From Propionibacterium freudenreichii subsp. freudenreichii (GTDB taxonomy: Bacteria > Actinomycetota > Actinomycetes > Propionibacteriales > Propionibacteriaceae), in assembly GCF_000940845.1 (NCBI RefSeq), contig NZ_CP010341.1:1800001-1832000 (forward strand): 32,000 nucleotides of DNA, read 5' to 3'. This document shows, in pieces, positions 3,032-26,132 of this stretch. The stretch's first letter is position 1. Each line of letters begins with the position of its first letter. Below the pieces are notes generated by a model. That model was not told the origin of the DNA. It saw only the letters and a list, made by a program, of their open reading frames with translations, and did no database searches. A program made the translations under genes and the position numbers.

Positions 3032-3059
3032 GGGCTCGACCATGCCAGCGGTCGGCCCC
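3032..3059 (-). terminator. possible stem-loop at the stop codon of the 667-aa ORF
   Basis: gggctcgacc (3032-3041) and ggtcggcccc (3050-3059) can form about 9 bp with one bulged T and an 8-nt loop. No U-tract. Weak call. Confidence 0.25.
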
Positions 3060-5436: not shown

Positions 5437-5742
5437 ATGAGCACGGGGAACGAGAAGACGCGGAGGCAGCGTCGCAAGTTCACGGCACAGTACCGCCATG
5501 AGGCGGCGAGGATGGTGATCGACTCGGGTCGCACGATCGCCGAGGTCGCCCAGGAACTGGGGCTGGGTCCCCAACTGTTGGGCAGGTGGGTGAAGGCAGA
5601 GAAGGAGACCATGACGCCGAGCACGTTGAGTCCGGATGAACGCGAGGAGTTGAAGCGGCTCCGCAAGGAGAACGCGGACCTGCGGATGGACAACGAGTTC
5701 TTGGGAAAAGCAGCGGCCTTCTTCGCTGCGAAGCATCAGTGA
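5437..5742 (+). CDS. IS3-family transposase OrfA (HTH, 101 aa)
   Basis: ATG 5437 after gggggaaggtgttgtc. MSTGNEKTRRQRRKFTAQYRHEAARMVIDSGRTIAEVAQELGLGPQLLGRWVKAEKE... is a typical IS3/IS911 OrfA with a leucine-zipper-like tail. Confidence 0.85.
   Translation: MSTGNEKTRRQRRKFTAQYRHEAARMVIDSGRTIAEVAQELGLGPQLLGRWVKAEKETMTPSTLSPDEREELKRLRKENADLRMDNEFLGKAAAFFAAKHQ
5703..5709 (+). promoter_or_regulatory. candidate programmed -1 ribosomal frameshift heptamer G_GGA_AAA (IS3 orfA to orfB)
   Basis: In the orfA frame the codons are ttg gga aaa gca, giving the X_XXY_YYZ pattern gggaaaa. The -1 frame is open from here into orfB (..LGKSSGLLRCEASVSEKYTLMQ..). Confidence 0.5.
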
Positions 5743-6360
5743 GTGAGAAGTACACGCTGATGCAGGCGGAGAAGGCTCGGTACCCGATTGCCCGGATGGC
5801 CCGCCTGTTGAAAGTGTCCACTTCCGGGTACTACGCGTGGGTTGCGGCCCAGCAGCGGGATGGGGATCATCTTCTCCCCAGCCTCCGGGCGCGTCGGCGC
5901 CTGGATGAGGCGGTGCGCCGCATATGGGTGGACTCCCGAAGCACGTACGGGTACCTGCGTGTGTGCGCCCAGCTTCGCCGTGAGGGGGTGGTGGTGGATC
6001 GTAAGACGGTGGCGGCCTTGATGCGCCGTCAGGGCCTTGCGGGCATCAGCCCGCGCCGGTTCCGTCCGGTGACGACGATACCGGGGACGCGCACGCATTC
6101 GATCCCTGACCGGGTCAAGCGACACTGGGACACGGGGCAGGTGGATCGCGTGTGGGTCACCGGCATCACCTACCTGAGGACGCGGGCCGGGTGGGTGTAC
6201 CTGTGCGCCATCAAGGACGCTTGCTCCCGGAAGGTCATCGCAACCGCCATGTCGACGACCATGACGACGGACCTCGTGGAGGAGGCGTTGCGTTCGGGCT
6301 CGCATTCTTCGCCCGAACGCGCCCAGGAAAGTGATCATCCATTCCGACCGTGGCACGCAA
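5739..6360 (+). pseudogene. IS3-family transposase OrfB, N-terminal part (frameshifted, truncated by IS30 insertion)
   Basis: YPIARMARLLKVSTSGYYAW... and ITYLRTRAGWVYLCAIKDACSRKVIA (HTH_21 and start of rve). The best-matching reading moves from frame 0 (..LVEEAL) to frame 2 (AFGLAFFARTRPGK*) to frame 1 (VIIHSDRGTQ) between about 6290 and 6333, implying two indels. Confidence 0.8.
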
Positions 6361-7857
6361 GGTGAATTCAACTGGTCGTCGCAACACCTTGACCGTGGAG
6401 GTGTTCAGCTGTGGCGACGAGGGACTGGGCCGCGAAGACGAGCGATGTGCCCGAGGGTGCGCGTCGGCAATGGCGTGCGGATCGGGCGTTGCGTCCGCCG
6501 ATGCGTTCGCCCGGGCGGCCTGAGCCCTCGCGGGCGGTGCAGCGGCAGTTCTGGCGTCTGATCGCGACGGGCATCACCTCAGCCGAAGCGGCTCTGAAGG
6601 TGGGCGTGTCTGTGCCGGTCGGGTCCCGTTGGTTTCGCCACGCTGGCGGCATGCCACCGATCTCACTTGCCGAGCCCAGCGGCCGTTACCTGTCCTTCGA
6701 GGAGCGTGAGGAGATCGCGCTCCTGCGCGCCAAGCAGGTCGGCGTGCGTGAGATCGCGCGCAGGATCGGCCGCGACCCGGGAACGATCTCCCGCGAACTG
6801 CGCCGCAACGCGGCCACGCGCAGCGGGAAGCAGGAGTACCGGGCGTTGGTAGCGCAATGGAAGGCTCAGCAGACAGCGAAGCGCCCGAAGACGGCGAAGC
6901 TCGCGACCAACGACCGGTTGCGTGAGTACGTTCAGGAGCGCCTCGCCGGAAACGTCTGTCGGCCTGACGGCAGCATCGTCGTGGGGCCGGAACCGCCGGC
7001 ATGGAAGGGGCTGAACAAACCTCACCGGCAGGACCGGCGGTGGGCGACCGCGTGGAGCCCGGAGCAGATCTCGCACCGGCTGAAGGTCGACTTCCCGGAT
7101 GATGAATCCATGCGCATCAGCCACGAGGCGATCTACCAGTCGCTGTTCATTGAGGGCCGTGGTGCGCTCAAACGCGAGCTCGTCACGTGCCTGCGCACCG
7201 GCCGCGCCCTCCGGCAGCCGCGGGCTCGAGCACAGAACCGCCCGCAAGGTCACGTCACCGCCGATGTCGTGTTCTCCGAACGGCCCGCAGCAGCCGCGGA
7301 CCGCGCCGTGCCCGGGCATTGGGAGGGCGACTTGATCATCGGCACGGGCCGGTCCGCGATCGGCACTCTCGTCGAACGCAAGAGCCGGTCGACCCTGCTG
7401 GTGCACCTGCCGAGGCTGGACGGGTGGGGCGAGGCGCCGCCGATCAAGAACGGGCCCGCGTTGGGCGGCTACGGCGCAGTCGCGATGAACGCCGCGCTCA
7501 TCGCGTCGATGATGAAGCTCCCCGAACAGCTCCGCAAGACGCTCACCTGGGACCGCGGCAAAGAACTCTCCGCGCACGCCCAGTTCGCGCTCGAGACGGG
7601 CACGAAGGTGTTCTTCGCCGACCCCCACTCGCCCTGGCAGAGGCCGACGAACGAGAACACCAACGGGTTGCTGCGGCAATACTTCCCGAAGGGCACCGAC
7701 CTCTCACGATGGTCCGCTGAAGACCTCGAAGCAGTCGCCCTCGCACTGAACAACCGACCCCGCAAGAGCCTCGACTGGAAGACCCCCGCCGAAGTATTCC
7801 AGGAGCAGTTACACTCGCTCCAACAACCCGGTGTTGCAACGACCGGTTGAACCCAGG
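6361..7857 (+). mobile_element. IS30-family insertion sequence (1497 bp) inserted in IS3 orfB
   Basis: Terminal inverted repeats ggtgaattcaactggtcgtcgcaacacc versus reverse complement of the right end cctgggttcaaccggtcgttgcaacacc. 3-bp direct duplication caa at 6358-6360 and 7858-7860. Removing 1500 nt restores HSDRGTQ|FTSEQMYE in frame. Confidence 0.9.
6501..7850 (+). CDS. IS30-family transposase (449 aa from ATG 6501; ORF opens at GTG 6411)
   Basis: N-terminal HTH (FWRLIATGITSAEAALKVGVS; REIARRIGRDPGTISRELRRN). DDE region with HWEGDLIIG, TLTWDRGKELS and NENTNGLLRQYFPKGTDL. The stop lies inside the right IR. Confidence 0.9.
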   Translation: MRSPGRPEPSRAVQRQFWRLIATGITSAEAALKVGVSVPVGSRWFRHAGGMPPISLAEPSGRYLSFEEREEIALLRAKQVGVREIARRIGRDPGTISRELRRNAATRSGKQEYRALVAQWKAQQTAKRPKTAKLATNDRLREYVQERLAGNVCRPDGSIVVGPEPPAWKGLNKPHRQDRRWATAWSPEQISHRLKVDFPDDESMRISHEAIYQSLFIEGRGALKRELVTCLRTGRALRQPRARAQNRPQGHVTADVVFSERPAAAADRAVPGHWEGDLIIGTGRSAIGTLVERKSRSTLLVHLPRLDGWGEAPPIKNGPALGGYGAVAMNAALIASMMKLPEQLRKTLTWDRGKELSAHAQFALETGTKVFFADPHSPWQRPTNENTNGLLRQYFPKGTDLSRWSAEDLEAVALALNNRPRKSLDWKTPAEVFQEQLHSLQQPGVATTG

Positions 7858-8148
7858 CAATTCACCTCCGAGCAGATGTATGAGTGCTGCCGGGAACTCC
7901 ACCTCGACCAGTCAATGGGACGCACCGGGGTGTGCTGGGACAATGCGATGATCGAATCCCAGTGGTCCGTGTTGAAGGCTGAGTTCTACGACCGCTACGA
8001 GTGGGACACCCCCCAGCAGGCCATTCAGGGCGTGGAGGAGTGGATCTACGACTTCTACAACACGAAGCGCCTCAACTCAGCGATCGGCTACCAGACCCCA
8101 GTCGAGTTCGAAGCCCAACACGCGGCAGCCCTGACACGGGCCGCCTGA
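7858..8148 (+). pseudogene. IS3-family transposase OrfB, C-terminal part
   Basis: (Q)FTSEQMYECCRELHLDQSMGRTGVCWDNAMIESQWSVLKAEF...KRLNSAIGYQTPVEFE is the rve-domain C-terminus. It continues 6331-6360 in frame once the IS30 is removed. Confidence 0.85.
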
Positions 8149-8184
8149 ACCAATCCAACCGTCCGAAACTTGCGGGTAACCCCA

Positions 8185-8743
8185 GGACCCGTTCCATGTG
8201 GTGGCGTTGGCCGGGGACAAGATGAACCAGACCCGGCAACGAGTGCAGCGGGAACTCACCGGCGGCCGGGGCCGCCGCGACGACCCGCTCTACAAGGCCC
8301 GCCGCCTCCTCCACACCGGTATCGGTCTGCTCACCGAAAGGCAGAACACTCATCTGGATGCGCTGTTCGCCACCGATGACCACGCCGAGGTCGAGATCAC
8401 CTGGAGCGTCTACCAGAACATCATCGCCGCCTACCGCAACCCCGACCGGACCGCAGGGAGGACGGCGTTGTCGAGGCTGATCGACGCGATCAAGACCGGC
8501 GTCCCGAAAGGGCTGGAGGAACTGGCCCAGCTGGGGCGGACCCTCCACAAGCGCCGCTCAGACATCCTGGCGTTCTTCGACCATCCGGGCACCTCGAACG
8601 GTCCAACGGAAGCGATCAACGGCCGTCTCGAGCACCTCCGCGGCATCGCGCTCGGGTTCCGGAACCTGGCCAACTACCGACTCAGGTCACTCCTCGAAGC
8701 CGGCGGCTTCAGACCCCTGCTCCACTCATTTCTGTGAAGAGCC
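8185..8743 (+). pseudogene. ISL3-family element remnant (3' third of transposase plus right IR)
   Basis: The reading frame from 8186 (DPFHVVALAGDKMNQTRQRVQ...GPTEAINGRLEHLRGIALGFRNLANYRLRSLLEAGGF) parallels residues DPFHVVQLAGD...GPTEALNGRLEHLRGSALGFRNL of the full ISL3 at 12750-14185. It ends in ttctgtgaagagcc (ISL3-type IR). The 5' two-thirds are missing, replaced by IS3. Confidence 0.85.
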
Positions 8744-8834
8744 CGATTCAATATCGCGATTGCGAGAGCCAGCGACCCGGCGGCGGCCCCGACGCGCAGC
8801 TTCCTTACCCGCGGGACCACGCCAGCCAAACCAA

Positions 8835-11810
8835 TCAGTTAGACAGGACCTGTTTGATCAGCGAAGCGATATCATCGCGGTGCACCTGATCGCGGAACGT
8901 CACATCGATATCTTCCGAGCTCATCGCCTCGAAGAACCGTTGCGCCGCCGTCATCCTGAGCTTCTCGCTCTCGCGGAGGTCGGAGCGCTTCTTGACGTCC
9001 TTCGTCTCGATGATGAAGTTTAGGGACAGACCGCCGTCCTCGCGTTTGAGCACGTACATGAAGTCCGGGCTCGTGGTTCCGCCGAAGTACATGGGGACCT
9101 TGATCGATCGGCGCGGGATCTTCCCGAAGACGATGACCGCGTCGAGCTTGGAGTCGCGGATCGTGTCATGCTCCTTCGGTGAGTCATACACAAACGCGTC
9201 GTACAGGAACTTGTCCGGAACGATAGCCTTTTCGTCGCGGAAGACGCCGATGTTGCCCTGCGTGATGCTCTCGAGCGGGGCACCATCTGCATCGGTGAGT
9301 TCCGTGCCGAGTACGAGCCCCTCGATCTTCGAGTACGTGAACCGCTCGAGGTAGTTACGCTCCATCCACTCCGTGAACCCAGCAACAAACTCATGCAGGG
9401 TCGCCTTGTTGAAGAAGTCGGCGGGGAGGCTCTTCTTCGCGTCGAGGCGGACGAGCCCCGCGTGGACACGATCGATCGGCAGTCCCGTCTGAGCACGGAC
9501 ACGCTTCAGCCAGTCGCCGTACGGCATCGTCTCGGTTGCGTTGAAGACCTTCTTCGTCTCCGTCCGAACCTCCAGGGACGAGCCCTCGTCAGCCTGCACG
9601 ACGACATCTTGCGCGAATCGACCGAACTCCTGCCGGTAGATATCAGCGCCCAGCACCTCGTCGATGCACTCATCGATCTCGCCGGCCGCGAGCTCGTCGA
9701 GGCGGAGGTAGTACTTGGCGTTCAGCGTCTCCCAGAGGTCCTTGAGCGCGGAGTACCGCTCGGAGCGAATGCCGACCTTAACCTTCTGATTTCCCTTCAC
9801 CACCTTGTCAGGCTTCAGGCCCGTCTTGTTGAACGCGGGGTAGGCAGCGAACAGGTCATCTTCGCGCCCCGGTACGACGTTCTTGTCGGGATCGACGAGC
9901 CCCTGCTGCAGGAGCTCGATGAAGAGTTCCGTCTCCGTCTTGCCGAGCTCGTCGGCGACCTTGGGCAGTAGCTCCTTCACCTTGGCTGGGCCCACGGCGA
10001 CGTCGGAGTTGATCTCGTCGACGAGAGACTCGGCGAACTTTTGCTCCGTGTAGTCGATGAGGTAGGTGAGGTAGAACTGCTCGCCCGCGAGACGAGTGCC
10101 CTTCGCGTCCACGGGCAACCGGAGGCCACGGCCCACCTCCTGGAGCTTCGAGATCTCCGACCCGGACGACCGGAGCTTGACGATCTGGAACACGTTCGGG
10201 TTGTCCCAGCCCTCACGGAGCGTCCACTTCGAGAACAGGAATCGACGAGTGTTCGGCGCACCGTTCGCCGTCTCGAAGGACAGCATCGCCTCCTTGTTGC
10301 GGAGGATGTCGTCGACCTCTCGCTGGATGGCCTCGTCGGTTGTGGAGTTGTCCGCGGAGAAGTATCCACCGTTCGCCGCCTCGACGTCAGCGAGCGACGC
10401 CCGCAGGTAGGCGACATACTCCTTCGCGACGGGCGAGGAGTCGCCCTCGCGCTTCTCGATCTCCGCGGTGAGCCGTGCAGCGAGGAGCTCCTCGAAGCGC
10501 TGCCTGAGGTGCCCTTTCGAACCGTCGCTGCCGCGATAGGACTCGATCGAGTCGATGAAGAACAGGGTGAGCGTCTTGACCCTGGACGAGCGGCGGAAGT
10601 TCTCCCACTCGGTCTCGAAGTGGTTGTCGAGTGCCTGCCGCATCATCAGGCTCTGATAGGTGTCGGAGTAGACCCGGGCCGAGAGGATGTCCCCTGTCCC
10701 CAGCGCCTGACCGTTGGACAGCGTGACGCCGGACTTGATCGTCGGGTTGTCGGTCCTACCGATCCCCTCGATTGTGATGCCCGCGAATGCGCGGTCCGCA
10801 ATGCCGAGGGACTCCCCCATATCGAAGGTGAGGGACTTCCCCGTGCCGATGTTCTGGAACGTCGCCTGCTTCGGCTTGCGCGCAGAGACGCTCGTGAGTT
10901 TCAGGCGCGTCGTATCGCTGCTGCTGTCCTGTGGGTACTGGACCTGGACGCCCTTGACCAACTGCTCGTTAAACGACTCGACGGCACCGAGGTTGAACAC
11001 GAGGTTGTTGTAGTCGGTCTTCCCCGTCTTGCCGAGCTCCGGGAACGTCGCGCCGAAGCGGAAGACCGCCAAGGGCCGGATCTCGTCGATGAGCGTCTGA
11101 TACGCCTTGTTGTCGCGTCGGAAGCGATGCGGCTCATCCATAATGACGATGGGGCGAGTCCCACGAAGCGCCTCGTAGGGGACACTGGTCGTGCCGAGCA
11201 CCGTCTGGTCGTAGTCGAACGCCATCGTCTTCTTCGACTGCAGCATGCCGTCGGTCATGAGGAGAGCGGAGATCCGACCAGGCGAGAGCCGCGAGCCGTG
11301 CACGAAGTTGACAACCGAGTTCGGCATCATCTTCCGCCCCTTCGATCGCTTCTGCGGATCGAGGACATCGAGGCGCAGCTCCATCTGCGGGCCGTACGCA
11401 TCAGCGAAGTACTGGCGTGCGTAGTCCGACCGGATGAACGCCTTCGCGCCTTCCTTGATCGGTGTCGAGGGCACGAGAAGGATAAACTTCGTGAAGCCGT
11501 AGAGGCGGTTCAGTTCGTACATGAGCTGCGTGTAGACCAGCGTTTTGCCGGTGCCGGTCTCCATCTTGGCGTCGACCCCGAGAACACCGTCATCTACGTG
11601 TCCCCGCCATGGACGAGGGATCGCAGCAATCCCGTCCACAACACCCGACTGGATCGCGTTGATGTTCTCGCGAAGCTGAGGATCCGCCGGGTCAAAGGCG
11701 ATGTTCGCCGCGGGCGGGGTACTGGTGTCGAACTCCACGTCCCTGAAGACGCGGGTCAGCGCATTCAGCGCACGCTGCTGATGTTCCAGAGTCTGAAGTC
11801 GGATCTGCAT
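8835..11810 (-). CDS. res: type III restriction enzyme Res subunit (SF2 helicase plus C-terminal PD-(D/E)xK nuclease), 991 aa
   Basis: Motif I KMETGTGKT. Motif II VIMDEPHRF (DEPH). C-terminal SPDFMYV...FIIETKDVKK nuclease-like motif. Starts 3 nt after the mod stop (tga ccc atg). Confidence 0.9.
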   Translation of the reverse strand: MQIRLQTLEHQQRALNALTRVFRDVEFDTSTPPAANIAFDPADPQLRENINAIQSGVVDGIAAIPRPWRGHVDDGVLGVDAKMETGTGKTLVYTQLMYELNRLYGFTKFILLVPSTPIKEGAKAFIRSDYARQYFADAYGPQMELRLDVLDPQKRSKGRKMMPNSVVNFVHGSRLSPGRISALLMTDGMLQSKKTMAFDYDQTVLGTTSVPYEALRGTRPIVIMDEPHRFRRDNKAYQTLIDEIRPLAVFRFGATFPELGKTGKTDYNNLVFNLGAVESFNEQLVKGVQVQYPQDSSSDTTRLKLTSVSARKPKQATFQNIGTGKSLTFDMGESLGIADRAFAGITIEGIGRTDNPTIKSGVTLSNGQALGTGDILSARVYSDTYQSLMMRQALDNHFETEWENFRRSSRVKTLTLFFIDSIESYRGSDGSKGHLRQRFEELLAARLTAEIEKREGDSSPVAKEYVAYLRASLADVEAANGGYFSADNSTTDEAIQREVDDILRNKEAMLSFETANGAPNTRRFLFSKWTLREGWDNPNVFQIVKLRSSGSEISKLQEVGRGLRLPVDAKGTRLAGEQFYLTYLIDYTEQKFAESLVDEINSDVAVGPAKVKELLPKVADELGKTETELFIELLQQGLVDPDKNVVPGREDDLFAAYPAFNKTGLKPDKVVKGNQKVKVGIRSERYSALKDLWETLNAKYYLRLDELAAGEIDECIDEVLGADIYRQEFGRFAQDVVVQADEGSSLEVRTETKKVFNATETMPYGDWLKRVRAQTGLPIDRVHAGLVRLDAKKSLPADFFNKATLHEFVAGFTEWMERNYLERFTYSKIEGLVLGTELTDADGAPLESITQGNIGVFRDEKAIVPDKFLYDAFVYDSPKEHDTIRDSKLDAVIVFGKIPRRSIKVPMYFGGTTSPDFMYVLKREDGGLSLNFIIETKDVKKRSDLRESEKLRMTAAQRFFEAMSSEDIDVTFRDQVHRDDIASLIKQVLSN

Positions 11811-11813
11811 GGG

Positions 11814-12749
11814 TCAGTACCGCTCGATCACCGAGACGGTCTGCCCCGACCGAAGCGACGTGAGATTCTGCTTCAGCTCGTGCATGACCGAGAACGGCAC
11901 CGAGTACCCGAAGACGACGAGACGCTTCAGATCGAGCTCACCGGCCTCGAGCTTGGCCACGAGCGCCATCACGTCGTCGCTGTCGAGTCCCGACTCGATG
12001 ACGTAAGCGGAGTCCTCGCAAACCTTCAGCTTGTAGTCATCGAGCCCCACGTCGTTCACCTCAGGCGTCAGGCCGAAACCGTCCTGAACGAGCCAAGTAG
12101 AAAGCGCGACCTGGTCTCCCGGCGTCCCGTGGGACGCAAACTTCGACACGAAATCGCCAGCAAACATCACGCCGTCCTCATTAGGATCGAAGGCCTGAAG
12201 CTGATCGAGCGTCTTCTCACTCGGCTTCTCGAGACGGAATAGACGGAAGCCGTAGTCGATCGTAGCGTTCGACTGATTCTGAATCTGTTCCGCTGAAGCC
12301 TGGATCCGCATCCGGCCAAGCTGGTCGATGGTATCGAATCCTGCCGTCGCCGCTTTCGTGCCGGGCGCTACCTTCTCCGGCCACTGGACTGCAATGTGGC
12401 GACGTGTCCCCGCGTCCTCAGCATTCAACTGCATCACCGCATGAGCGGTCGTTGCCGACCCTGAGAAAAAGTCGAGAACCAGCGCGTCGTCGGGCGCGAA
12501 CGAAACCAAGTACTTAATCAACGGGACAGGCTTCGGATATGGGAAGGGGCAACCCATCTCGGCAAGCGCGTTTCCCGCTGTCTCGACCGTCCCCAGATTC
12601 ATGAGCACGGTCAGAATGTGCTGTTGGTCCGCACGCCGGATCTTGACGTTGTCGATGGCTCCCGTGTTCGTGAGTTCGAAGACCGTGTCCTGCCCCTTGG
12701 AATCAACAACCGGGGCATACTCGCCAGCAATGAAGCTCCGCAGCAAAGC
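11814..12749 (-). pseudogene. mod: type III DNA methyltransferase Mod, C-terminal part (split by ISL3)
   Basis: ..LLRSFIAGEY...PYPKPVPLIKYLVSFAPDDALVLDFFSGSATTAHAVMQLN (AdoMet motif I FxGxG). Joins 14186..15213 in frame after removing the IS and one TSD copy (1028 + 928 nt = 652 codons). Confidence 0.88.
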
Positions 12750-14185
12750 GGCTCTTCACGATTGAGGGTGTAGTTGGGGTCTGAATCCTCCGGCCTCGAG
12801 GAGACTGCGGGCAATGTAGTTCGTCAGGTTTCGGAAGCCCAAGGCTGAGCCGCGCAGGTGTTCCAGTCGGCCATTGAGGGCTTCTGTCGGGCCGTTGGAG
12901 GTGTGGGGGCGCTCGAAGTAGGCCAGGACGTCTGTGGCGCGCCGCTTGAGGGTGCGCCCCAGGGTGATGATCTCAGCGAGGGCGGCGGGAACGCCGCGGC
13001 TGATGACCTCGATGACGTGGGCCAGCTGGGCTCGCCCGGCCTTGGGGTCGGGATCGCGGTAGGCGGCCACGATCTTCTGGTAGATGCCCCAGGTGGCTTC
13101 CACCCCGACGTGAGCGTCCTGGGCGAAGACGCCCTCCAGGCGGGTGCGTTGCTTGTCTGTGAGGAGATCCATCCCGGTGTGCAGGGTCTTGCGCACCCCG
13201 TACAGGGGATCCCCGGACCGGCCTCGATGTCCGGTGGTGTCTTGCTGGACGCGCTGGCGGCAGTGGTCCAGGGCATCGCCGGCGAGCTGGACGACGTGGA
13301 AGGGATCCATGACCTCCACCGCGTCGGGGAGTTCTTCCTTCGCTGCGGTCTTGAACCCGGTGAAGCCGTCCATGGCGACCACCTCAATCCGGTCGCGCCA
13401 CGCAGGGTCTTGCTGGCTGAGCCACTCCTTGAAGGCCTTCTTGGAGCGGCCCTCCACCATGTCCAACAACCTGGCAGGACCCCTTCCCTCGCGCAGCGGG
13501 GTGAGGTCGATGATCACGGTGACGAACTTGTCGCCCCTGCGCGTGTGCCGCCACACGTGCTCGTCCACCCCGATCGTGGTCACACCCTCGAAGCGATGCT
13601 CATCGTTGATGAGGACCCTGCGTCCCTCCTCCAGGACGGAGGTGTTGGCGCAGTCCCAGGACACGCCCAGACCCTCAGCGACCCGGGCGACGGTGAGGTG
13701 TTGGACGACGATGCCCGCCACGGGCCCAACGCAGTCCGCCCCGGGACAGTTTCGAGCGCGGCTGGGCCGCCCCAGTGGTGTCCTGCCTCCACACACGCCC
13801 ACACCCCGAACAGCGGTAGCGACGCACTCGCACCACCAGTGTCACCGGTCTCCAGCCCGAGGGCTCGTGGGCGAGGCGACGGACCACGGTGTCGCGGGGG
13901 ATCCCTTCGCACCCACACTCGCGACACCACCGGTCATCGTCCACCACCCGGCAGGCCACCTCGCAGCGATCCGGGAGGACTCTCTGGCCCACCACCACGA
14001 GGCCGAGGTCATCCAGGCGGGCGAACGTGGTCAGATCGGGGGCAGCAAAGGTAGCGTGGGACACGTCGGGGTCTTTCAGATGGGCAGCGTAGGAACTCCC
14101 ATCATCGGAAGACCCCGACCCTCACACCCACCCCGACACGCCAGCCAGACTCAACCCCCCGCTACACCCCGGATCGCGAAGAGCC
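12750..14185 (-). mobile_element. ISL3-family insertion sequence (1436 bp) inside mod
   Basis: IRs ggctcttcacgattgagggtgtagttgggg (12750->) versus reverse complement of the other end ggctcttcgcgatccggggtgtagcgggggg. Perfect 8-bp target duplication agcaaagc at 12742-12749 and 14186-14193. Confidence 0.92.
12756..14064 (-). pseudogene. ISL3-family transposase, frameshifted
   Basis: The N-terminal zinc-finger part (13675..14064: ...CRECGCEG...YRCSGCGRVWRQD...SRGGLRWA) and the DDE part (12756..13802: ..VAGIVVQHLTVARVAEGLGVSWD...) are in different frames. The switch is near tgggcccgtggcggg (about 13735-13750). Confidence 0.85.
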
Positions 14186-15213
14186 AGCAAAGCACCGTTG
14201 GCCCAGCCGGTCCGTGCCGTCACTCGGTTGATGAGCTTTCCTCCCGCGATAACCAAGTCCACGTCGTAGTTGGGAAACTTGTCGGTTCTCGCGGGGATAA
14301 TCCCTTCGTCGAAGCCAGCTGGAAACCCGGGTTCCAGGACGATCTCGGAGACAGGGTTCTTGGGACCATTCTTGACGACCGAGTTGCGGATCTCGTCGTT
14401 GAACAGCTTGCTCTCGTCGGACAGGTTCGGGTCCTTGACTCCGGCGATGAACATGTCTGGCACACGCTTCGCATACATGTGCACGTACTCGTGATTGATC
14501 TTGACTGTCGCCTGGTTGTCAAGATTCCCATCGGTCCGCCACGCGAAACTCGCGACGAAATTCTGTTCGCCGAACACCTCATCGCACAGCGCCTTGAGAT
14601 TCGCCTGCTCGTTGTCATCGATGCTGATGAAGATGATGCCGTCGTCAGCGAGCAATTCTTTCGCAAGCTCGAGTCGGGGATACATGAAGGTAAGCCACGC
14701 CGAATGCGACGACTTGCCTTGGAGCGCCATCACCCGCTCGGCCTCGTCCTCGTCAAGACCCACCTTTTCGACCAGGTCCTTCGCCGTGAAGCCGAAGTCG
14801 TCGACGTAGACGAACCCATCGGAACCCGTGTTGTACGGCGGATCGATGTAGATGCACTTGACCTGGCCCGCGTACGACCCCAGTAGGTGCTTGAGCGCAT
14901 CCAAGTTGTCACCGACGATGTACAGATTTTCCGACTCAGCGTTCGCCGCCTCAGCGTTGTGCTCGAGGTCAGGGACCATGACCGTCTCGGTCCGCGTCGA
15001 GGTCAGGTACTTGGCGTAGGACTTCCCGAGGAACTTGAGCTCGTAGCCTTCCCTCGTCATCGAAACGTCCGCGGAACTCAGCGCCTCCTGAAGGCGGTCG
15101 AGCCTGAAGCCGCCATCCTTGTCGAAGTACTCCGGCAAGACCGAGCGGAGGCGTGCCAGCTCAAAGTCGTTCGGCTTCGTGGTCTCGTTCGCTTCGTGCG
15201 CGTCCCTGATCAC
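14186..15213 (-). pseudogene. mod: type III DNA methyltransferase Mod, N-terminal part (split by ISL3)
   Basis: GTG start 15213 overlapping the TGA of mini-ORF R3. Catalytic motif IV CIYIDPPYNTGSDGF. The ORF track reading (14122..15213) runs on into the ISL3 IR. Confidence 0.88.
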
Positions 15214-15269
15214 TTCTTACCCCCAGACGTAATTCCCGTACGGAACTCCACCACGATTCGATCGCTCAT
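15210..15269 (-). repeat. ychF 3'-end copy R3 = 19-codon mini-ORF MSDRIVVEFRTGITSGGKK*
   Basis: 39/45 identity to ychF 17122-17166 over the core. Its ATG overlaps the TGA of the 312-aa ORF (ATGA). Its TGA overlaps the GTG of mod (GTGA). Confidence 0.85.
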
Positions 15270-16204
15270 AGTCCGAAATACTCCTTAAATCTCTGCCACA
15301 AGCTGCGATCTTCAGCACCTTCGCCGTGAGGCGCTGCCTGAACGAACTGCACGAAATAGGGCGTGCCGAGTATCACTCGACTCACGAAAGCTTCGCGGTT
15401 GGTCGACGCCGGCCCCCAGTTGAGGTAACTAACTTCAGCACCATCACCGGAGGTCGGGCAGTCGTGTACATCCAGACACATGAACGCAATTTCAACGTTC
15501 TGCTCACGAGAGTCGCTTAGAAGGTTTCTCGCCGCCAGGGCATAGTAGGGATCTCGCAACCAGCGTTCGTCACTATCCTCGCGCTCCTCCCCCAGCATCT
15601 TCGCTCTGAGGAGTTCGAACAGGTGCTCCGTTTGCGATCCACCCCGCCAGTCGGAAACGCTCCCGCCAAGCACCGTCTTAAGCTGACCTTCTGCCGTGCC
15701 GCTGAGCACCACCCAAGTTACGGATTGCGCTTCGTGCACGGGAAGGGTGTCTGGGATCTCAATCAGCCAAAGCCCAAGCCTGGGCGCATCCTCGAGCTCG
15801 TGCGGTTCTCTGAAATCATCATGGGTTCGGATGGCGAAACGGGTTGCTCCTCGGAAGTGATAATCGCGCCCCGGCTCGAACGCGGCACCGCGTTGAGCCG
15901 CAAGTGAGTGCGCTGTCACGTCGGCGAGAACCTCGGGCGCGACCGCGAGGAGCTGACTACGATCGGTGCGGTCGGATACTACGTTCGACTTCACTCCAGC
16001 TTCAAGAGCCCCGCTCACGATGAGACCACCCACGACACCAGCTGGAGAGACAGCGCCGACCCCTTTGGTCTTCGTGCTCGCGCTGTACGAGTGATCGGCG
16101 ATCGTGTGCCTACCAGCGATTAGCGCATCGGCAACCTTGTTTAGCCCTACGTAAAAAGCTCGCGACTGATCAAAGGACGGAGCACCCTCCATGTCGAGTC
16201 TCAT
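15266..16204 (-). CDS. hypothetical protein (312 aa), no recognised family
   Basis: ATG 16204 overlaps the TGA of mini-ORF R2 and is preceded by ctggggggaagaa (SD-like). Gly/Ala-rich hydrophobic stretch GVGAVSPAGVVGGLIVSGALEAGV near the N-terminus. Lower-GC island DNA. Confidence 0.6.
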   Translation of the reverse strand: MRLDMEGAPSFDQSRAFYVGLNKVADALIAGRHTIADHSYSASTKTKGVGAVSPAGVVGGLIVSGALEAGVKSNVVSDRTDRSQLLAVAPEVLADVTAHSLAAQRGAAFEPGRDYHFRGATRFAIRTHDDFREPHELEDAPRLGLWLIEIPDTLPVHEAQSVTWVVLSGTAEGQLKTVLGGSVSDWRGGSQTEHLFELLRAKMLGEEREDSDERWLRDPYYALAARNLLSDSREQNVEIAFMCLDVHDCPTSGDGAEVSYLNWGPASTNREAFVSRVILGTPYFVQFVQAAPHGEGAEDRSLWQRFKEYFGL

Positions 16205-16260
16205 TTCTTCCCCCCAGAGGGTATTCCGCTACAGAACTCCACCGCTTCACGCTTCGTCAT
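16201..16260 (-). repeat. ychF 3'-end copy R2 = 19-codon mini-ORF MTKREAVEFCSGIPSGGKK*
   Basis: 36/45 identity to ychF 17122-17166 over the core. Its TGA overlaps the ATG of the 312-aa ORF (ATGA). Its ATG lies within the last 14 nt of the 292-aa ORF. Confidence 0.85.
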
Positions 16261-17125
16261 CAGGATTACTCAGCCCCCCGGCCTCGGTTCCGATGGACCG
16301 GTCCGAGTGCGCAAGCCTAAGTTGTCCGTCGACGAACTGAGCGATTCGTCGATCGAATCGCTCACCGTGCTTGACCTCACGTCCACCAAAATAGTCTCCG
16401 GACTTGTCTCGCCAGACGAAGGCTTCTGAGAGTCCGTTCTGATAGATCTTCAACAACTGCGGGACGCCGCCGACTGTGCGGACATCGGCGTTATCAATCA
16501 GCCGCTGAAGCACCTGGAGGGGTTCCCAGTCGAGATTCGCCCTCCGCGCCTGCTCGGCTGCCTCCGGATGACCACTGAGCGGACGCGGTGCATTCTTCTC
16601 GTTGAGAATCTGGTAAAGATTCGCCCTAGCTTCCTGGCTAGCGTCACCTGCGAAATAAACCCCGTATGCAGTCGATTCATTCAAGTCACTAATAGACTTC
16701 ATCACCAACTCACCGCGACTGTCGTAACTATACGAGTACGCTTCAAACCGGAGGCGACGCCAAGACCACCCGAATAGCACGACATCGAGGTCCGGAACAT
16801 TAGCCGTCATTTGGCCCCAGGGAAGATCTCCGACGTCTTGACGGCTATCCGCATACAGGTCTCGCAGCTTGTTGGCGAGATATCGAATGTCAGTGCGCCC
16901 GATTTCATTGCCATCAAGTAGCAAGCACGCGTTCATCGCCTGAAGCACGAATGCATACGCCGTTGTTGCGTGTCCTGACATCGCTATTGCAGTCGCCGGA
17001 CGGGGAAGCGGGACAAGCTTGGGGCAACGGTCCCAGCTCTCACCACCGCTCAGTCGAGAGTCACTCACCGCGACCAATTCGCCGAGGGTCGCGTTCCTAC
17101 GAACCCACAACGCAACGAGTGTCAC
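16247..17125 (-). CDS. putative Ntn-hydrolase, HslV/proteasome-beta-like N-terminal domain with about 100-aa C-terminal extension (292 aa)
   Basis: GTG 17125 overlaps the ychF TGA (aagaaGTGAcactc). N-terminus M-TLVALWVRRNATLGELVAVSDSRLSGGESWDRCPKLVPL resembles E. coli HslV [23 protein letters not shown]...KKVRRL (recalled from memory). Thr follows Met, with an Asp about 20 and a Lys about 34 residues later. VYFAGDASQEARANLYQIL is comparable to AIGSGGPYAQAAARALL. Confidence 0.55.
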   Translation of the reverse strand: MTLVALWVRRNATLGELVAVSDSRLSGGESWDRCPKLVPLPRPATAIAMSGHATTAYAFVLQAMNACLLLDGNEIGRTDIRYLANKLRDLYADSRQDVGDLPWGQMTANVPDLDVVLFGWSWRRLRFEAYSYSYDSRGELVMKSISDLNESTAYGVYFAGDASQEARANLYQILNEKNAPRPLSGHPEAAEQARRANLDWEPLQVLQRLIDNADVRTVGGVPQLLKIYQNGLSEAFVWRDKSGDYFGGREVKHGERFDRRIAQFVDGQLRLAHSDRSIGTEAGGLSNPDDEA

Positions 17126-18213
17126 TTCTTGCCGCCAGACGTTAGTCCACTACGGAACTCCACCACGTCCCCGTCCTGCATCACGTATTCCTTGCCCTCA
17201 AGGCGCACGCGACCGGCCGCCTGGGCCTCCTTCATGCCGCCGTACTCGACCAGCTCGTTGAAGCTGACCACCTCGGCCTTGATGAAGCCCTTCTCGAAGT
17301 CGGTGTGGATCACGCCGGCCGCCTGCGGGGCGGTCCAACCCTTGTGGATGGTCCAGGCGCGCGATTCCTTCTCGCCGGCGGTCAGGAAGCTCTGTAGGCC
17401 CAGCGTGTCGTAACCCACCCGCGCCAACTGGTTCAGGCCGGGCTCCTCCACGCCGGTATCGGCGAGGAACTCCGCGGCCTCCTCGTCGCTCATCTCCACC
17501 AGTTCGGACTCGAACTTCGCGTCGAGGAAGATCGCCTCGGCGGGCGCCACGAGCTTGCGGGTGCGGTCCAACAGGTCGGCGTCGGCCAGCTGGTCCTGAT
17601 CGCAGTTGAACACATAGATGTAGGGCTTGGCGGTGAGCAGCCACAGGTCGTGCAACGGCTCGGGATCCAGCCCGGCCTGGAAGATGCCGGTGCCGGCGGC
17701 GAGCGTCTCATAGGCCTTGCGGTAGACCTCCGCCTTGGGTCGCGTCTCCTTGCGGATCGCGGCCTCCTTCTCCACCTTGGGCAGCACCTTCTCCAGGGTC
17801 TGCAGGTCAGCCAGCACCAGCTCGGTGGTGATGGTGTCAAGGTCGGAACCGGGATTCACCTGCCCGTCCACATGGGTCACGTCCACATCGGTGAACATCC
17901 GGGTGACCTGGCAGATCGCATCGGCCTCGCGGATATTGGCGAGGAAGGCGTTGCCCATCCCCTCACCCTGCGAGGCGCCCTTCACGATGCCGGCGATGTC
18001 CACGAAGGTCACCGTGGCCGGCACGAGCTTGGCCGAGTCGAACATCTTGCCCAGCACGTCCAGGCGTCCGTCGGGCACGCCGACCACGCCCACATTCGGC
18101 TCGATCGTCGCGAACGGGTAGTTCGCGGCAAGGGCGTCGTTGCGGGTCAGCGCGTTGAACAGGGTCGATTTGCCGGCGTTGGGGAGGCCGACGATTCCAA
18201 TGGTGAGTGCCAC
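17122..18213 (-). CDS. ychF: redox-regulated ATPase YchF (363 aa) with non-canonical C-terminus
   Basis: MALTIGIVGLPNAGKSTLFNALT (P-loop), TGS-like C-terminal domain. Ends ...YVMQDGDVVEFRSGLTSGGKK* rather than the usual ...F(R/L)FNV*. GTG start at 18213. Confidence 0.95.
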   Translation of the reverse strand: MALTIGIVGLPNAGKSTLFNALTRNDALAANYPFATIEPNVGVVGVPDGRLDVLGKMFDSAKLVPATVTFVDIAGIVKGASQGEGMGNAFLANIREADAICQVTRMFTDVDVTHVDGQVNPGSDLDTITTELVLADLQTLEKVLPKVEKEAAIRKETRPKAEVYRKAYETLAAGTGIFQAGLDPEPLHDLWLLTAKPYIYVFNCDQDQLADADLLDRTRKLVAPAEAIFLDAKFESELVEMSDEEAAEFLADTGVEEPGLNQLARVGYDTLGLQSFLTAGEKESRAWTIHKGWTAPQAAGVIHTDFEKGFIKAEVVSFNELVEYGGMKEAQAAGRVRLEGKEYVMQDGDVVEFRSGLTSGGKK

Positions 18214-18226: not shown

Positions 18227-18228
18227 AC

Positions 18229-26095: not shown

Positions 26096-26132
26096 GGGAT
26101 TCCTTTCGATGGACGAAGGCGTCGGCGAGCCC

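What the first reader, a model, noticed from the sequence alone, without database searches (positions are those of the whole stretch)
15210..17181. Three direct copies of the ychF 3' end, each a 19-codon mini-ORF whose stop overlaps the next gene's start
Read on the minus strand, the last 60 nt of ychF (17181->17122) are ATG CAG GAC GGG GAC GTG GTG GAG TTC CGT AGT GGA CTA ACG TCT GGC GGC AAG AAG TGA = MQDGDVVEFRSGLTSGGKK*. The same unit recurs twice downstream in the same orientation. Copy R2 (16260->16201) is ATG ACG AAG CGT GAA GCG GTG GAG TTC TGT AGC GGA ATA CCC TCT GGG GGG AAG AAA TGA = MTKREAVEFCSGIPSGGKK*. Copy R3 (15269->15210) is ATG AGC GAT CGA ATC GTG GTG GAG TTC CGT ACG GGA ATT ACG TCT GGG GGT AAG AAG TGA = MSDRIVVEFRTGITSGGKK*. 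Hand-counted identity to ychF over the 45-nt core is 36/45 and 39/45. Both copies keep an ATG, exactly 19 sense codons and a TGA. Many differences are conservative or synonymous (S->T, L->I, GGC GGC -> GGG GGT). That is expected for diverged genuine ychF ends or for sequences kept translatable, not for random decay. In all three units the TGA overlaps the start codon of the following gene: aagaaGTGAcactc (292-aa ORF), aagaaATGAgactc (312-aa ORF), aagaaGTGAtcagg (mod). The 312-aa ORF stop overlaps the ATG of R3 (ctATGAgc). The ATG of R2 lies in the last 14 nt of the 292-aa ORF. The result is an unbroken chain of stop/start overlaps: ychF -> 292 aa -> mini-ORF -> 312 aa -> mini-ORF -> mod -> (3-nt gap) res. 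In the relics GGC GGC has become GGG GGG or GGG GGT, a G-rich SD-like tract 4-5 nt before the start. I infer that island genes are transcribed from, and translationally coupled to, a housekeeping gene, with the displaced ychF tails reused as coupling leader ORFs.
Basis: partly seen in the sequence, partly recalled or inferred. Interest (0 to 1): 0.9.

Follow-up and report, generated by a model that had tools for sequence, protein, structure and literature searches.

The report
Mobile-element junction repeats after ychF
The three repeats are junction sites left by mobile defence-gene modules stacked one after another in the last codons of the housekeeping gene ychF, apparently by a serine recombinase; each module brings a substitute gene end and its own ribosome-binding site, which makes this a recognisable kind of genomic island with an unusual cassette-like layout.

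Summary
In detail: three 60-nt direct repeats lie at the stated coordinates with the stated identities. They are not copies of the native ychF end. The window is Propionibacterium freudenreichii carrying a 14.3-kb low-GC island (2842-17152) in the ychF 3' end. Conspecific genomes have the empty site. The true ychF end (VEFRFNV*) lies displaced at 2836-2811. The shared 45 nt has the anatomy of the element-side arm (P') of a large-serine-recombinase (LSR) attachment site. P' is the inverted repeat of the arm at the distal junction. Its outer motif AACNTCT sits 5 bp further out than in the native ychF arm, which is the published LSR attP/attB rule. Intact relatives carry an LSR gene right behind such an arm. 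The same arm ends ychF in about 45 Actinomycetota species. It also separates defence modules that recur in different orders in different genera. So R1 is attL, and R2 and R3 are internal junctions of a tandem accretion. P' ends in SD-N5-(A/G)TGA, so read-through and coupling from ychF is plausible but untested. The 19-codon "leader ORFs" look mostly incidental. It is a new variant of a known kind, comparable to SCC elements.

The parts
17122..18213 (-). ychF (363-aa allele). Its last 10 codons (R-SGLTSGGKK*) are supplied by the inserted DNA.
   Evidence: Pfam MMR_HSR1 + YchF-GTPase_C. P. freudenreichii has both 363-aa and 357-aa (native) alleles.
17122..17191 (-). R1 = attL. It joins the ychF-derived B arm, the central GT (17163-17162) and the element P' arm (GGAGTTCCGTAGTGGACTAACGTCT), followed by SD GGCGG, AAGAA and a GTG start overlapping TGA.
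   Evidence: Collinearity with the empty-site genome ends at 17153.
16247..17125 (-). Cassette 1: a 292-aa proteasome-beta-like Ntn hydrolase with a conserved M-T-L N-terminus.
   Evidence: Homologues also lie behind ychF in Frigoribacterium, Rothia and Mycolicibacterium.
16201..16260 (-). R2 = internal junction. The 3' end of cassette 1 (weakly ychF-like left arm) is joined to the P' arm that heads the 312-aa gene.
15266..16204 (-). Cassette 2: a 312-aa protein of unknown fold.
   Evidence: Homologues lie directly behind ychF in Scardovia and Cryobacterium.
15210..15269 (-). R3 = internal junction. The end of cassette 2 is joined to the P' arm that heads type III mod (..GTGATCAGGGA).
   Evidence: The same P' arm plus mod directly follows ychF in Corynebacterium L026, L062, L079 and L080. 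The window and L016 diverge right after GAGTTCCGTA.
8835..15213 (-). Type III restriction-modification module. It comprises mod N-part 14185-15213, an ISL3 IS at 12750-14184, mod C-part 11814-12749 and res 8835-11810.
   Evidence: Pfam. IS boundaries come from comparison with L001 and L011. Mod is 88-91% and res 92-96% aa identical to Corynebacterium elements, against 65% for YchF.
5365..8737 (+). IS debris: an IS3-family element (5365-6365 and 7831-8148) interrupted by an IS30-like gene (6411-7850), plus an ISL3 fragment at 8198-8737. This is where intact relatives carry the recombinase and mobilisation genes.
   Evidence: tblastn finds no LSR or relaxase remnant in the window.
3059..5062 (-). 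667-aa candidate defence gene (PADLOC PDC-S56).
   Evidence: E = 1.5e-246.
2811..2866 (-). R4 = attR. The element P arm (..CAGATGTACCTATGTGCCGGAACGCGG), the central GT and the displaced native ychF end (GGAGTTCCGGTTCAACGTCTGA = VEFRFNV*) form an imperfect palindrome.
   Evidence: P-arm p = 0.0006; z = -2.8, with a 5-nt bulge on the P side only.
2842..17152 (.). The inserted island (about 14.3 kb, 58-63% GC against 67-72% in the flanks). It is bounded by the direct repeat GGTGGAGTTCCG.
   Evidence: Composition. Empty site in CP120880.1 and CP191348.1.

Best explanation
The repeats are recombination-junction (att) sites of a family of integrative elements that target the last codons of ychF in Actinomycetota. 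These elements most likely use a large serine recombinase (LSR).

Shown: in this P. freudenreichii window a 14.3-kb island is inserted at GG|TG-GAGTTCCG. R1 is attL, made of a ychF B arm joined to an element P' arm. The displaced native end at 2836-2811 is attR, made of an element P arm joined to the native B' arm. R2 and R3 are internal junctions. In each, a P' arm heads the next cargo module (the 312-aa gene, then type III mod-res) and is joined to the tail of the previous module. The island is therefore a tandem accretion of P'-headed defence modules.

The P' arm does three jobs in about 45 nt. Its inner motif (GAGTTCCG) and outer motif (AACNTCT) are the inferred recombinase-binding elements. 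It keeps ychF open, replacing ...R-FNV* with ...R-SGLTSGGKK*. It ends in GGNGG-AAGAA-(A/G)TGA, which is an SD plus a start codon overlapping the stop.

Inferred: cargo is expressed by read-through and re-initiation from ychF or from the preceding module. The recombinase and mobilisation genes seen in intact relatives were lost here, probably during IS activity. The small modules were added or reshuffled by recombination at the unit. Whether that step is recombinase-mediated in trans or driven by homology is not resolved.
For: Insertion. Conspecific complete genomes are collinear with window 18268-17153 and then 2841-1 at 99.9% identity. The two segments overlap in ACGTGGTGGAGTTCCG, so this is the empty attB. 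The island has low GC.

Site anatomy.
- The reverse complement of the distal left arm matches the P' weight matrix at p <= 0.001 in the window, L022, L033 (two sites), L042, L045 and L074.
- In C. meridianum the distal P arm and the pre-LSR P' arm are 20/30 identical as inverted repeats.
- The outer motif AACNTCT sits at positions 19-25 in P' and at 14-20 in the native B' arm.
- The window's attR folds as a long imperfect hairpin (z = -2.8) with a 5-nt bulge on the P side only.
- This 5-bp shift is the published LSR attP/attB rule (PMC3783163).
- The central GT is kept in 37 of 40 units that are not part of ychF.

Recombinase.
- One LSR family (1376 hits, Actinomycetota) recurs in ychF islands of Pauljensenia, Propionibacteriaceae, Frigoribacterium, Blastococcus and Corynebacterium.
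- In C. meridianum and C. heidelbergense the order is ychF-mod-res-[P' arm]-LSR-relaxase...HTH_17-[P+B'].
- Another P. freudenreichii strain has an LSR island at the same site.
- LSR pipolins were reported to integrate at ychF in Actinomycetota (PMC11551731).

Modularity.
- The unit ends a YchF-type reading frame in 48 of 56 pattern matches, spread over about 45 species.
- Multi-unit arrays, all in direct orientation, occur in 13 loci.
- The GmrSD cassette (1936 bp) sits between ychF and HsdM in L027 and between the 312-aa gene and HsdM in L016, whereas HsdM directly follows ychF in L064, L023 and L035. In every case the right arm travels with the downstream gene.
- Cargo is dominated by restriction-modification and defence genes.

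Expression.
- In 34 of 52 assessable units an ORF of at least 100 codons starts at the NTGA overlap.
- The 292-aa family has a nearly invariant M-T-L N-terminus.
- No minus-strand terminator-like or promoter-like site was found between ychF and res.
Against: No recombinase gene is present in the window's island, nor in most fully visible islands. Activity here is therefore historical or supplied in trans. The left arms of R2 and R3 are poor half-sites (P-like p = 0.11-0.13; B-like p = 0.007 and 0.07). Canonical LSR chemistry (attP x attB only) does not readily explain how P'-headed modules are added next to an existing attL. The ychF-side B arm shows only weak symmetry with B' (11/30). No excised attP form was recovered: the attP pattern gave 0 hits in viral contigs and one uninformative hit in metagenomes, and the plasmid search gave nothing relevant. 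No recombination or expression data exist. The promoter and terminator scan is a weak consensus test.
Confidence: 0.75

Rival explanations
1. One reading: R2 and R3 are displaced genuine ychF tails kept as translated 19-codon leader ORFs, whose stop/start overlaps relay ribosomes from gene to gene.
For: Both frames are open, start with ATG and end in TGA overlapping the next start. The 312-aa stop overlaps the ATG of R3. The same 19-codon ATGA...GTGA frame follows the 312-aa homologue in Cryobacterium although only 35/60 nt are identical. The left arm of R2 is weakly ychF-like (p = 0.007). Several internal units elsewhere keep M-x-D-x-D-V-V-E-F-like codons.
Against: The conserved 45 nt is not ychF sequence but the element's P' arm, and the native tail is FNV*. 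The ATG of R2 is part of CCTGATGAC at the 3' end of the 292-aa ORF, and the same string follows the Rothia homologue. Other arrays show the frame fused to the upstream ORF (GmrSD; L055 177 aa; L063 164 aa), lacking a start codon (L030) or frameshifted (L054). Fixed spacing of recombinase motifs explains the absence of indels. P' carries its own SD, so no leader is needed.
Confidence: 0.15
2. No dedicated recombinase is involved. ychF is simply a recombination hotspot, and the 45-nt unit is a portable homology patch. Islands and cassettes are exchanged by RecA-dependent or homology-facilitated recombination after gene transfer, with the conserved ychF gene as anchor.
For: Most islands, including this one, lack a recombinase. 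Internal left arms are not good half-sites. mod-res is 88-96% identical across orders, and ychF could serve as the flanking anchor. Canonical LSR rules do not predict insertion next to attL.
Against: This model does not explain several findings: the inverted-repeat relation of the P and P' arms, the 5-bp offset of the outer motif, the conserved central GT in non-coding contexts, or an LSR gene sitting about 25 nt behind a P' arm in intact elements. Junctions are precise in species whose ychF sequences differ. It may still account for reshuffling of the internal cassettes.
Confidence: 0.2
3. An integron-like system: cassettes captured by a tyrosine integrase through folded attC-like sites.
For: The layout is a direct array of mostly single, co-oriented, promoterless-looking genes separated by a conserved ~45-60-nt element, downstream of one expressed gene.
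Against: No tyrosine recombinase domain was found in the island ORFs that were scanned. None appears among the 25 commonest Pfam families of 140 neighbouring ORFs. The R2 and R3 single strands do not fold better than shuffles (z = +0.2 to +1.5). The associated recombinase is a serine enzyme.
Confidence: 0.02
4. A chance resemblance or a generic genome-wide repeat.
For: None beyond the short length of the units.
Against: Shuffles give 0 expected matches. In a scan of one genome for each of 185,579 species, the 53 stretches found are all Actinomycetota. In them, 48 of 56 matches end a YchF-type reading frame, 7 are internal copies and 1 is cut by the locus edge.
Confidence: 0.01

Closest known systems
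SCC elements (SCCmec, psiSCC, composite islands) at the 3' end of rlmH/orfX in staphylococci (from my own knowledge, not checked in the papers library)
   Same: Large-serine-recombinase elements insert in the last codons of a conserved housekeeping gene. The element supplies replacement terminal codons, so the gene stays intact. Successive elements, many without recombinase genes, pile up as arrays separated by short direct repeats. The cargo is accessory or defence-type.
   Different: The host phylum, target gene (ychF) and recombinase lineage differ; relatedness to Ccr was not tested. Here modules can be as small as one gene (about 0.45-2 kb). The element arm also carries an SD and a start codon overlapping the target gene's stop, which is not a described SCC feature as far as I know.
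Phage-type LSR attachment sites (A118/LI, Bxb1, phiC31; Rutherford et al. 2013, PMC3783163)
   Same: The sites are about 50 bp, imperfectly palindromic around a central dinucleotide, with inner and outer motifs. The outer (ZD) motif is 5 bp closer to the centre in attB than in attP, as seen here for B' against P' and P.
   Different: Only the B' side of attB obeys the rule clearly, and the ychF-side B arm is ambiguous. Arrays of hybrid sites are not expected from strict attP x attB directionality. Nothing has been tested biochemically.
Pipolins with LSRs integrated at ychF in Actinomycetota (Mateo-Caceres et al. 2024, PMC11551731)
   Same: The phylum, target gene and recombinase class are the same, and the cargo is rich in defence genes. 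This is the only prior mention of ychF as an integration site that I found.
   Different: No piPolB (family-B polymerase) was seen in the window or in the two intact Corynebacterium elements, where precomputed Pfam shows DNA_pol_A or nothing. The passages of the paper that I read (section 17 and the concluding remark) do not describe the att arms, the substitute C-terminus or the cassette arrays.
Integron cassette arrays
   Same: They work alike: a direct array of co-oriented, apparently promoterless genes, each with a conserved recombination-site element, downstream of one promoter.
   Different: There is no IntI tyrosine recombinase and no folding attC. The site heads each cassette rather than trailing it. 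The 'platform' is a housekeeping gene.
Accretion of ICE, IME and CIME elements at 3' ends of genes in streptococci (from my own knowledge)
   Same: Tandem accretion by site-specific recombination gives arrays with internal att sites, in which recombinase-less elements can be mobilised in cis or in trans.
   Different: Those systems mostly use tyrosine integrases and multi-kb elements. No coupling adaptor in the att arm has been described.

Membership tests
LSR (large serine recombinase) attachment sites | attP is an imperfect inverted repeat around a central dinucleotide. | tested here: met
   The reverse complement of the P arm matches the P' matrix at p <= 0.001 in 7 loci including the window, plus L077 at p = 0.0024. 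L079 shows 20/30 identity. The central GT is present in 37/40 units.
LSR (large serine recombinase) attachment sites | The outer (ZD) motif is 5 bp closer to the centre in attB half-sites than in attP half-sites. | tested here: met
   AACNTCT is at positions 19-25 in P' and 14-20 in B'. The window attR fold has a 5-nt bulge on the P side only. The rule is taken from PMC3783163. The ychF-side B arm is inconclusive.
LSR (large serine recombinase) attachment sites | A cognate LSR gene lies within the element, next to an att arm. | tested here: not met
   No Resolvase or Recombinase domain and no tblastn remnant was found in the window island. The feature is met in relatives: L079, L080, L088, L036 and L059, plus a decayed copy in L074.
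LSR (large serine recombinase) attachment sites | A precise empty attB exists in related genomes. | tested here: met
   CP120880.1 and CP191348.1 join window 17153 to 2841 across the shared core.
LSR (large serine recombinase) attachment sites | Recombinase-dependent recombination occurs at the central dinucleotide. | not testable with these tools
   This needs in vitro or in vivo assays.
SCC-like composite islands | Insertion in the 3' codons of a housekeeping gene, with the reading frame restored by the element. | tested here: met
   YchF ...VEFR-FNV* becomes ...VEFR-SGLTSGGKK*. The species has 357-aa and 363-aa alleles.
SCC-like composite islands | Arrays of elements separated by direct att repeats, including recombinase-less elements. 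| tested here: met
   The window has four sites. Arrays of 2-4 units per locus occur in 13 loci; two of those loci are from one Brachybacterium chromosome and together hold 5 units.
SCC-like composite islands | A Ccr-clade recombinase and staphylococcal rlmH as target. | tested here: not met
   The target is ychF in Actinomycetota. Relatedness of the LSR to Ccr was not examined.
Integrons | An IntI tyrosine recombinase next to the array. | tested here: not met
   No tyrosine-recombinase domain in the 20 window ORFs scanned, which include every large island ORF. None among the top-25 families of 140 neighbouring ORFs.
Integrons | attC sites that fold as single-stranded hairpins. | tested here: not met
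   R2 and R3, on either strand, fold no better than shuffles (z = +0.2 to +1.5).
Pipolins | A primer-independent family-B DNA polymerase (piPolB). | tested here: not met
   No polymerase domain in the scanned window island ORFs. The Corynebacterium relatives show DNA_pol_A or no Pfam hit.
Translationally coupled leader ORFs | A start codon and an intact short frame conserved across homologous sites. | tested here: inconclusive
   The frame is kept after the 312-aa gene in Cryobacterium. In other arrays it is absent, fused or frameshifted.
Translationally coupled leader ORFs | Translation of the short ORF is required for downstream expression. | not testable with these tools
   This needs ribosome profiling or reporter mutants.

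The most novel reading that the evidence does not exclude
The element-side att arm has evolved into a portable 45-nt 'docking and expression adaptor'. It would combine a recombinase half-site, a surrogate YchF C-terminus and an SD plus overlapping start. This would turn the end of ychF into an integron-like platform, driven by a serine recombinase acting in trans, across Actinomycetota. Single defence genes (Ntn hydrolase, GmrSD, HEPN, methyltransferases and others) would be captured, stacked, reshuffled between genera and expressed by translational coupling to a housekeeping gene.
Probability: 0.3. Interest if true: 0.75.

Novelty: new variant of a known kind. Interest (0 to 1): 0.55.

Why it matters
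The work defines, down to the base, a widespread and so far barely described integration site in Actinomycetota: the ychF 3' end, with its core, central dinucleotide, P/P' and B' arms, and an associated LSR family of more than 1000 members. This allows island boundaries to be called automatically. It predicts new attB/attP pairs for serine-integrase genome engineering in high-GC Gram-positives, including the dairy and probiotic species P. freudenreichii and Corynebacterium. It also flags a pool of uncharacterised candidate defence genes that so far are found almost only behind ychF. If the att arm really acts as an expression adaptor and the small modules are mobilised individually, this would be a serine-recombinase analogue of the integron. 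That is directly testable with the sites and enzymes named here.

Tried and rejected
- tRNA target: there are no tRNA or tmRNA genes in the window.
- Tyrosine integrase or integron: no such domain was found, and the units do not fold.
- Generic repeat: rejected by shuffles and by the scan of species-representative genomes.
- Excised or plasmid attP form: an attP-type pattern gave 0 hits in viral contigs and one uninformative 2.4-kb metagenome contig. An LSR protein search of plasmids gave only a distant Mycobacterium hit.
- Recombinase remnants in the window: tblastn with LSR, relaxase, MobC and the other genes of the Corynebacterium elements found only mod and res.
- 312-aa protein: no Pfam or PADLOC hit and no significant PDB fold match.
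- P. freudenreichii LSR P0171: its look-up failed. The LSR island was reached through a YchF allele instead.
- A 7-8-7 tyrosine-recombinase core reading of the distal palindrome was dropped in favour of the longer LSR-type architecture.
- A protein-level explanation for conservation of the tail was considered. The DNA motif AACNTCT is kept while the peptide changes (RSGLTSGGKK, RIGSTSAGAK, RFQVTSSTQK, RFGTTSTSKSKV). This favours constraint at the DNA level, although retention of a hydrophobic residue where native V stood may also matter.

Full report
**1. Observation**

- R1 (17181-17122), R2 (16260-16201) and R3 (15269-15210) each run ATG, 19 sense codons, TGA.
- The last 45 nt are 36/45 (R1-R2) and 39/45 (R1-R3) identical. 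The first 15 nt match at only 8/15 and 7/15.
- The repeat finder groups them as one three-copy direct family with spacings of 921 and 991 nt.
- A degenerate 45-mer hits R1 and R3, with 0 matches expected from shuffles.
- The ORF map confirms the chain ychF (17122-18213), 292 aa (16247-17125), 312 aa (15266-16204), mod and res, with the described NTGA overlaps.

Two facts were missed.
- The core GTGGAGTTCCG occurs a fourth time at 2836-2826. There it continues GTTCAACGTCTGA, giving VEFRFNV*, the canonical YchF C-terminus.
- mod is split by an ISL3-family insertion sequence at 12750-14184. Its terminal repeats are GGCTCTTC.../...GAAGAGCC and its 8-bp target duplication is GCTTTGCT. The IS is absent from two other assemblies that carry the same array.

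**2. It is an insertion in ychF**

The organism is Propionibacterium freudenreichii. Its YchF exists as 363-aa and 357-aa alleles.
- The region from about 1500 to 17100 is 58-63% GC, against 67-72% on either side.
- Two complete P. freudenreichii genomes with the 357-aa allele align at 99.9% with window 18268-17153 and then directly with window 2841-1. The two segments overlap in ACGTGGTGGAGTTCCG.
- Window 2842-17152 (14.3 kb) is therefore an island inserted in the last codons of ychF, bounded by the direct repeat GGTGGAGTTCCG.
- The sequence after that core in R1 (TAGTGGACTAACGTCTGGCGGCAAGAAGTGA, encoding SGLTSGGKK*) belongs to the island, not to ychF.
- Other P. freudenreichii genomes carry different islands at the same nucleotide: a TIR-TPR island, a DUF4238 island, a HEPN + FRG island, and a HEPN + type III RM + recombinase island.

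**3. Content of the island**

Behind ychF the island holds, in order:
- A 292-aa protein whose AlphaFold model (pLDDT 87.8) matches proteasome beta subunits (Foldseek E about 1e-9 to 1e-10). Its family has a nearly invariant M-T-L N-terminus, consistent with an Ntn hydrolase using Thr after Met removal.
- A 312-aa protein with no family or fold match.
- A type III mod/res pair.
- Nested IS3/IS30 and ISL3 debris.
- A 667-aa PADLOC candidate defence protein, PDC-S56.

No recombinase of any class was found.

**4. The unit elsewhere**

A scan of one genome for each of 185,579 species, using a degenerate form of the tail, returned 53 stretches. All are Actinomycetota: Actinomyces, Schaalia, Pauljensenia, Kocuria, Rothia, Microbacterium, Brevibacterium, Brachybacterium, Corynebacterium, Gordonia, Nocardiopsis, Streptomyces, Propionibacteriaceae and others.
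- In 48 of 56 matches the unit ends a reading frame with the YchF C-terminal sequence...EGKDYVMxDGDVVEFR[ST]GL[TA]SGGKK*. Of the rest, 7 are internal copies and 1 is cut by the edge of the locus.
- A profile search then found further copies downstream. All are in direct orientation and form arrays of 2-4 units per locus in 13 loci. Two of those loci come from one Brachybacterium chromosome and together hold 5 units.
- Downstream ORFs are dominated by restriction-modification and other defence families: N6_N4 and N6 methylases, HsdS, GmrSD, McrBC, type III res, OLD-TOPRIM, ApeA-HEPN and a C5 methylase.
- Native-type remnants (xVEFRFNV* with a left arm that is not ychF) mark distal island ends in at least 15 loci.

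**5. Modularity**

The same module occurs in different contexts, and the right arm of the unit always travels with the gene downstream of it.
- The GmrSD cassette is 1936 bp from unit to unit, with the arm ...GGTAGGAAGTGACAGAATCAC. It directly follows ychF in Enemella and Rothia (L027, L051), and the same arm and downstream leader directly follow ychF in Mobilicoccus, Tessaracoccus and Brevibacterium (L034, L039, L069). It follows the 312-aa gene in L016 and a 177-aa gene in Brachybacterium.
- HsdM, with the arm ...GGAGGAAAGAAGTGAAGACGG, directly follows ychF in L064, L023 and L035, but follows GmrSD in L016 and L027.
- The window and L016 share ychF-292-312. They diverge immediately after GAGTTCCGTA of R3, into mod in the window and GmrSD in L016.
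- The mod arm (..AAGAAGTGATCAGGGA) directly follows ychF in Corynebacterium.
- All five distant homologues examined lie right behind ychF. For the 292-aa protein these are in Frigoribacterium, Rothia and Mycolicibacterium. For the 312-aa protein they are in Cryobacterium and Scardovia.
- Window mod and res are 88-96% identical in protein to those of two Corynebacterium species, whereas YchF is 65% identical. This indicates recent inter-order transfer.

**6. Anatomy of the unit points to a large serine recombinase (LSR)**

All units were aligned on the centre GG|TG.
- The right arms of tail-type units give the consensus GGAGTTCCGtAgcGGaCTaAC.TCTGG. The native right arms give GGAGTTC(C/A)GGTTcAAcGTcTgA.
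- Both share the inner motif GAGTTCCG and the outer motif AACNTCT. The outer motif lies at positions 19-25 in the element arm (P') and at 14-20 in the native arm (B'), a 5-bp shift.
- The left arms of distal junctions, when reverse-complemented, match the P' matrix at p <= 0.001 in the window, L022, L033 (two sites), L042, L045 and L074, and at p = 0.0024 in L077. The element's site P+P' is therefore an imperfect palindrome of about 50 bp.
- The window's own distal site folds as a long imperfect hairpin (z = -2.8; 1 of 200 shuffles folds as well). It has a 5-nt bulge on the P side only, which shows the same offset within one sequence.
- The published rule for LSR sites is that the zinc-ribbon-domain motif lies 5 bp closer to the centre in attB than in attP (Rutherford et al. 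2013, PMC3783163).
- The central dinucleotide GT is kept in 37 of 40 units that are not part of ychF, while positions further left vary.
- R2 and R3 do not fold, which argues against attC-like sites.

**7. The recombinase**

- An LSR (Resolvase + Recombinase domains) lies in the ychF islands of two Pauljensenia genomes.
- Homologues or remnants lie in islands of a Propionibacteriaceae MAG, Blastococcus and Frigoribacterium. In Frigoribacterium a decayed copy abuts the distal site of a compact 3.6-kb island, ychF-GmrSD-292-LSR'.
- The family has 1376 database members at E < 1e-30, and those that carry an organism name are from Actinomycetota.
- In C. meridianum and C. heidelbergense the order is ychF(B+P')-mod-res-[x+P']-LSR-(ArdA)-relaxase-(MobC)-...-HTH_17-[P+B']. 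The LSR start codon lies about 25 nt behind its P' arm. The distal P arm is the inverted repeat of that P' arm (20/30 identity). This is an integrative mobilisable element with a mod-res module stacked between it and ychF.
- A P. freudenreichii strain has ychF-HEPN-mod-res-...-LSR at the same site.
- The only literature link I found states that LSR-encoding pipolins integrate at ychF in Actinomycetota. The passages I read give no description of the sites (PMC11551731).
- The P. freudenreichii genome paper notes the type III system and an IS disrupting its methylase in a sub-population. ychF does not occur in its main text (PMC5644110).

**8. Interpretation**

- R1 is attL (B+P').
- The site at 2866-2811 is attR (P+B').
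- R2 and R3 are internal junctions, each with a well-preserved P' arm that heads the next module.
- Their left arms are poor half-sites. R2 is weakly ychF-like (p = 0.007). R3 is not significant (p = 0.07), although its Cryobacterium counterpart has a P-like GGAAC.

How P'-headed modules come to sit next to an existing attL is the unresolved step. Canonical LSR directionality (attP x attB only) does not predict it. There are three options:
- Recombinase action on non-canonical site pairs.
- Integration into regenerated pseudo-attB sites. Sites with a B-like left arm joined to B' do exist, for example in L042, L058, L033 and L045.
- Homology-driven recombination using the 45-nt unit, with or without ychF as anchor.

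I regard the att-site and accretion reading as well supported. The LSR assignment is probable. The route of internal cassette shuffling is open.

**9. Expression**

- P' ends in TCT-GGNGG-AAGAA-(A/G)TGA, which is an SD-like tract about 6 nt before a start codon that overlaps the stop.
- In 34 of 52 assessable units an ORF of at least 100 codons begins exactly there. The search pattern itself enforced RTGA, so only the ORF continuation is informative.
- These ORFs include recognisable genes (mod, HsdM, a C5 methylase) and the Ntn hydrolase, whose conserved Thr2 fixes its start.
- In many arrays the upstream cassette ORF reads through the unit to its TGA, giving direct stop/start overlap. Examples are GmrSD, which ends ...GIDGDVVEFRSGLTSGGKK*, the L055 177-aa ORF and the L063 164-aa ORF.
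- In the window there is no terminator-like or promoter-like consensus on the coding strand between ychF and res (a weak test).
- Read-through from ychF, with coupling or re-initiation at each P', is therefore a reasonable inference.
- The 19-codon frames of R2 and R3 look largely like by-products of site geometry and of the preceding gene's last codons. Their preservation in Cryobacterium keeps a minor role possible.

**10. Verdict**

The feature is an LSR-type integration hotspot with tandemly accreted defence modules. It is closest in logic to SCC composite islands at rlmH. It differs in its unusually small cassettes and in an att arm that doubles as a surrogate gene end and ribosome-binding site. 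I rate it a new variant of a known kind, of moderate interest.

Noticed in passing
window 12750-14184: A 1.43-kb ISL3-family IS (ends GGCTCTTC.../...GAAGAGCC, 8-bp target duplication GCTTTGCT) splits the type III mod gene. It is absent from GCA_900000125.1 and GCA_030235365.1. This matches the published note of a transposase disrupting a type III methylase in a P. freudenreichii JS15 sub-population (PMC5644110).
   Followed up: yes
window 5365-8737: Nested insertion sequences: IS3-family orfA/orfB (5365-6365, continued at 7831-8148) interrupted by an IS30-like transposase gene (6411-7850), plus an ISL3 transposase fragment (8198-8737). They lie where intact related elements carry the recombinase and relaxase genes.
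   Followed up: partly
window 3059-5062 (-): A 667-aa ORF matches the PADLOC candidate defence family PDC-S56 (E = 1.5e-246). It has no Pfam hit and no P'-type unit upstream.
   Followed up: partly
window 18228-18348: A 34-nt tandem repeat (about 3.6 copies, CCGTCGACCCGTTCCAACCGCCCGCAGCCACCGG) lies immediately upstream of the ychF start. From the offset of the alignment blocks, the window appears to have two more copies than CP120880.1. It is a variable repeat in the putative ychF promoter or leader region.
   Followed up: partly
window 16247-17125 (-); L074, L075, L077: The 292-aa protein has a proteasome-beta/Ntn-hydrolase fold with a conserved Thr2. It has no Pfam or PADLOC family. Every homologue whose context was examined lies just downstream of ychF, so it is a candidate new defence or accessory gene.
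   Followed up: partly
window 15266-16204 (-); L085, L086: The 312-aa protein (25 homologues found) has no significant structural match. It lies directly behind ychF in Scardovia wiggsiae and Cryobacterium.
   Followed up: partly
L083:7046-7075, L084:7046-7075; also L032, L038, L048, L052, L057: A second class of element arm re-encodes the native FRFNV* with different, AT-richer codons (GTTGAATTCAGGTTTAATGT...). It is followed by other islands (TIR-TPR, DUF4238 and others). More than one element family appears to use the same ychF nucleotide.
   Followed up: no
L025:2472-2514: A hybrid junction in a Gordonia MAG. ychF keeps FRFNV* (TAG stop) and is followed 12 nt later by ...GAAGAAGTGA and the same 263-aa cassette that follows a tail-type junction in Kocuria.
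   Followed up: no
window 17167-17191 (-) and ychF ends in L021-L073: The ychF-side (B) arm carries ACGT (from the Y-V-M codons) at the P-type rather than the B-type spacing. attL might therefore resemble attP, and attR might resemble attB. This would bear on how arrays grow, but it is pure speculation from a 4-nt motif.
   Followed up: no
window 25586-26624: Two pairs of about 71%-identical direct repeats (177 nt and 119 nt), spaced about 570 nt apart, lie within coding sequence far from the finding. They probably reflect an internal domain duplication.
   Followed up: no
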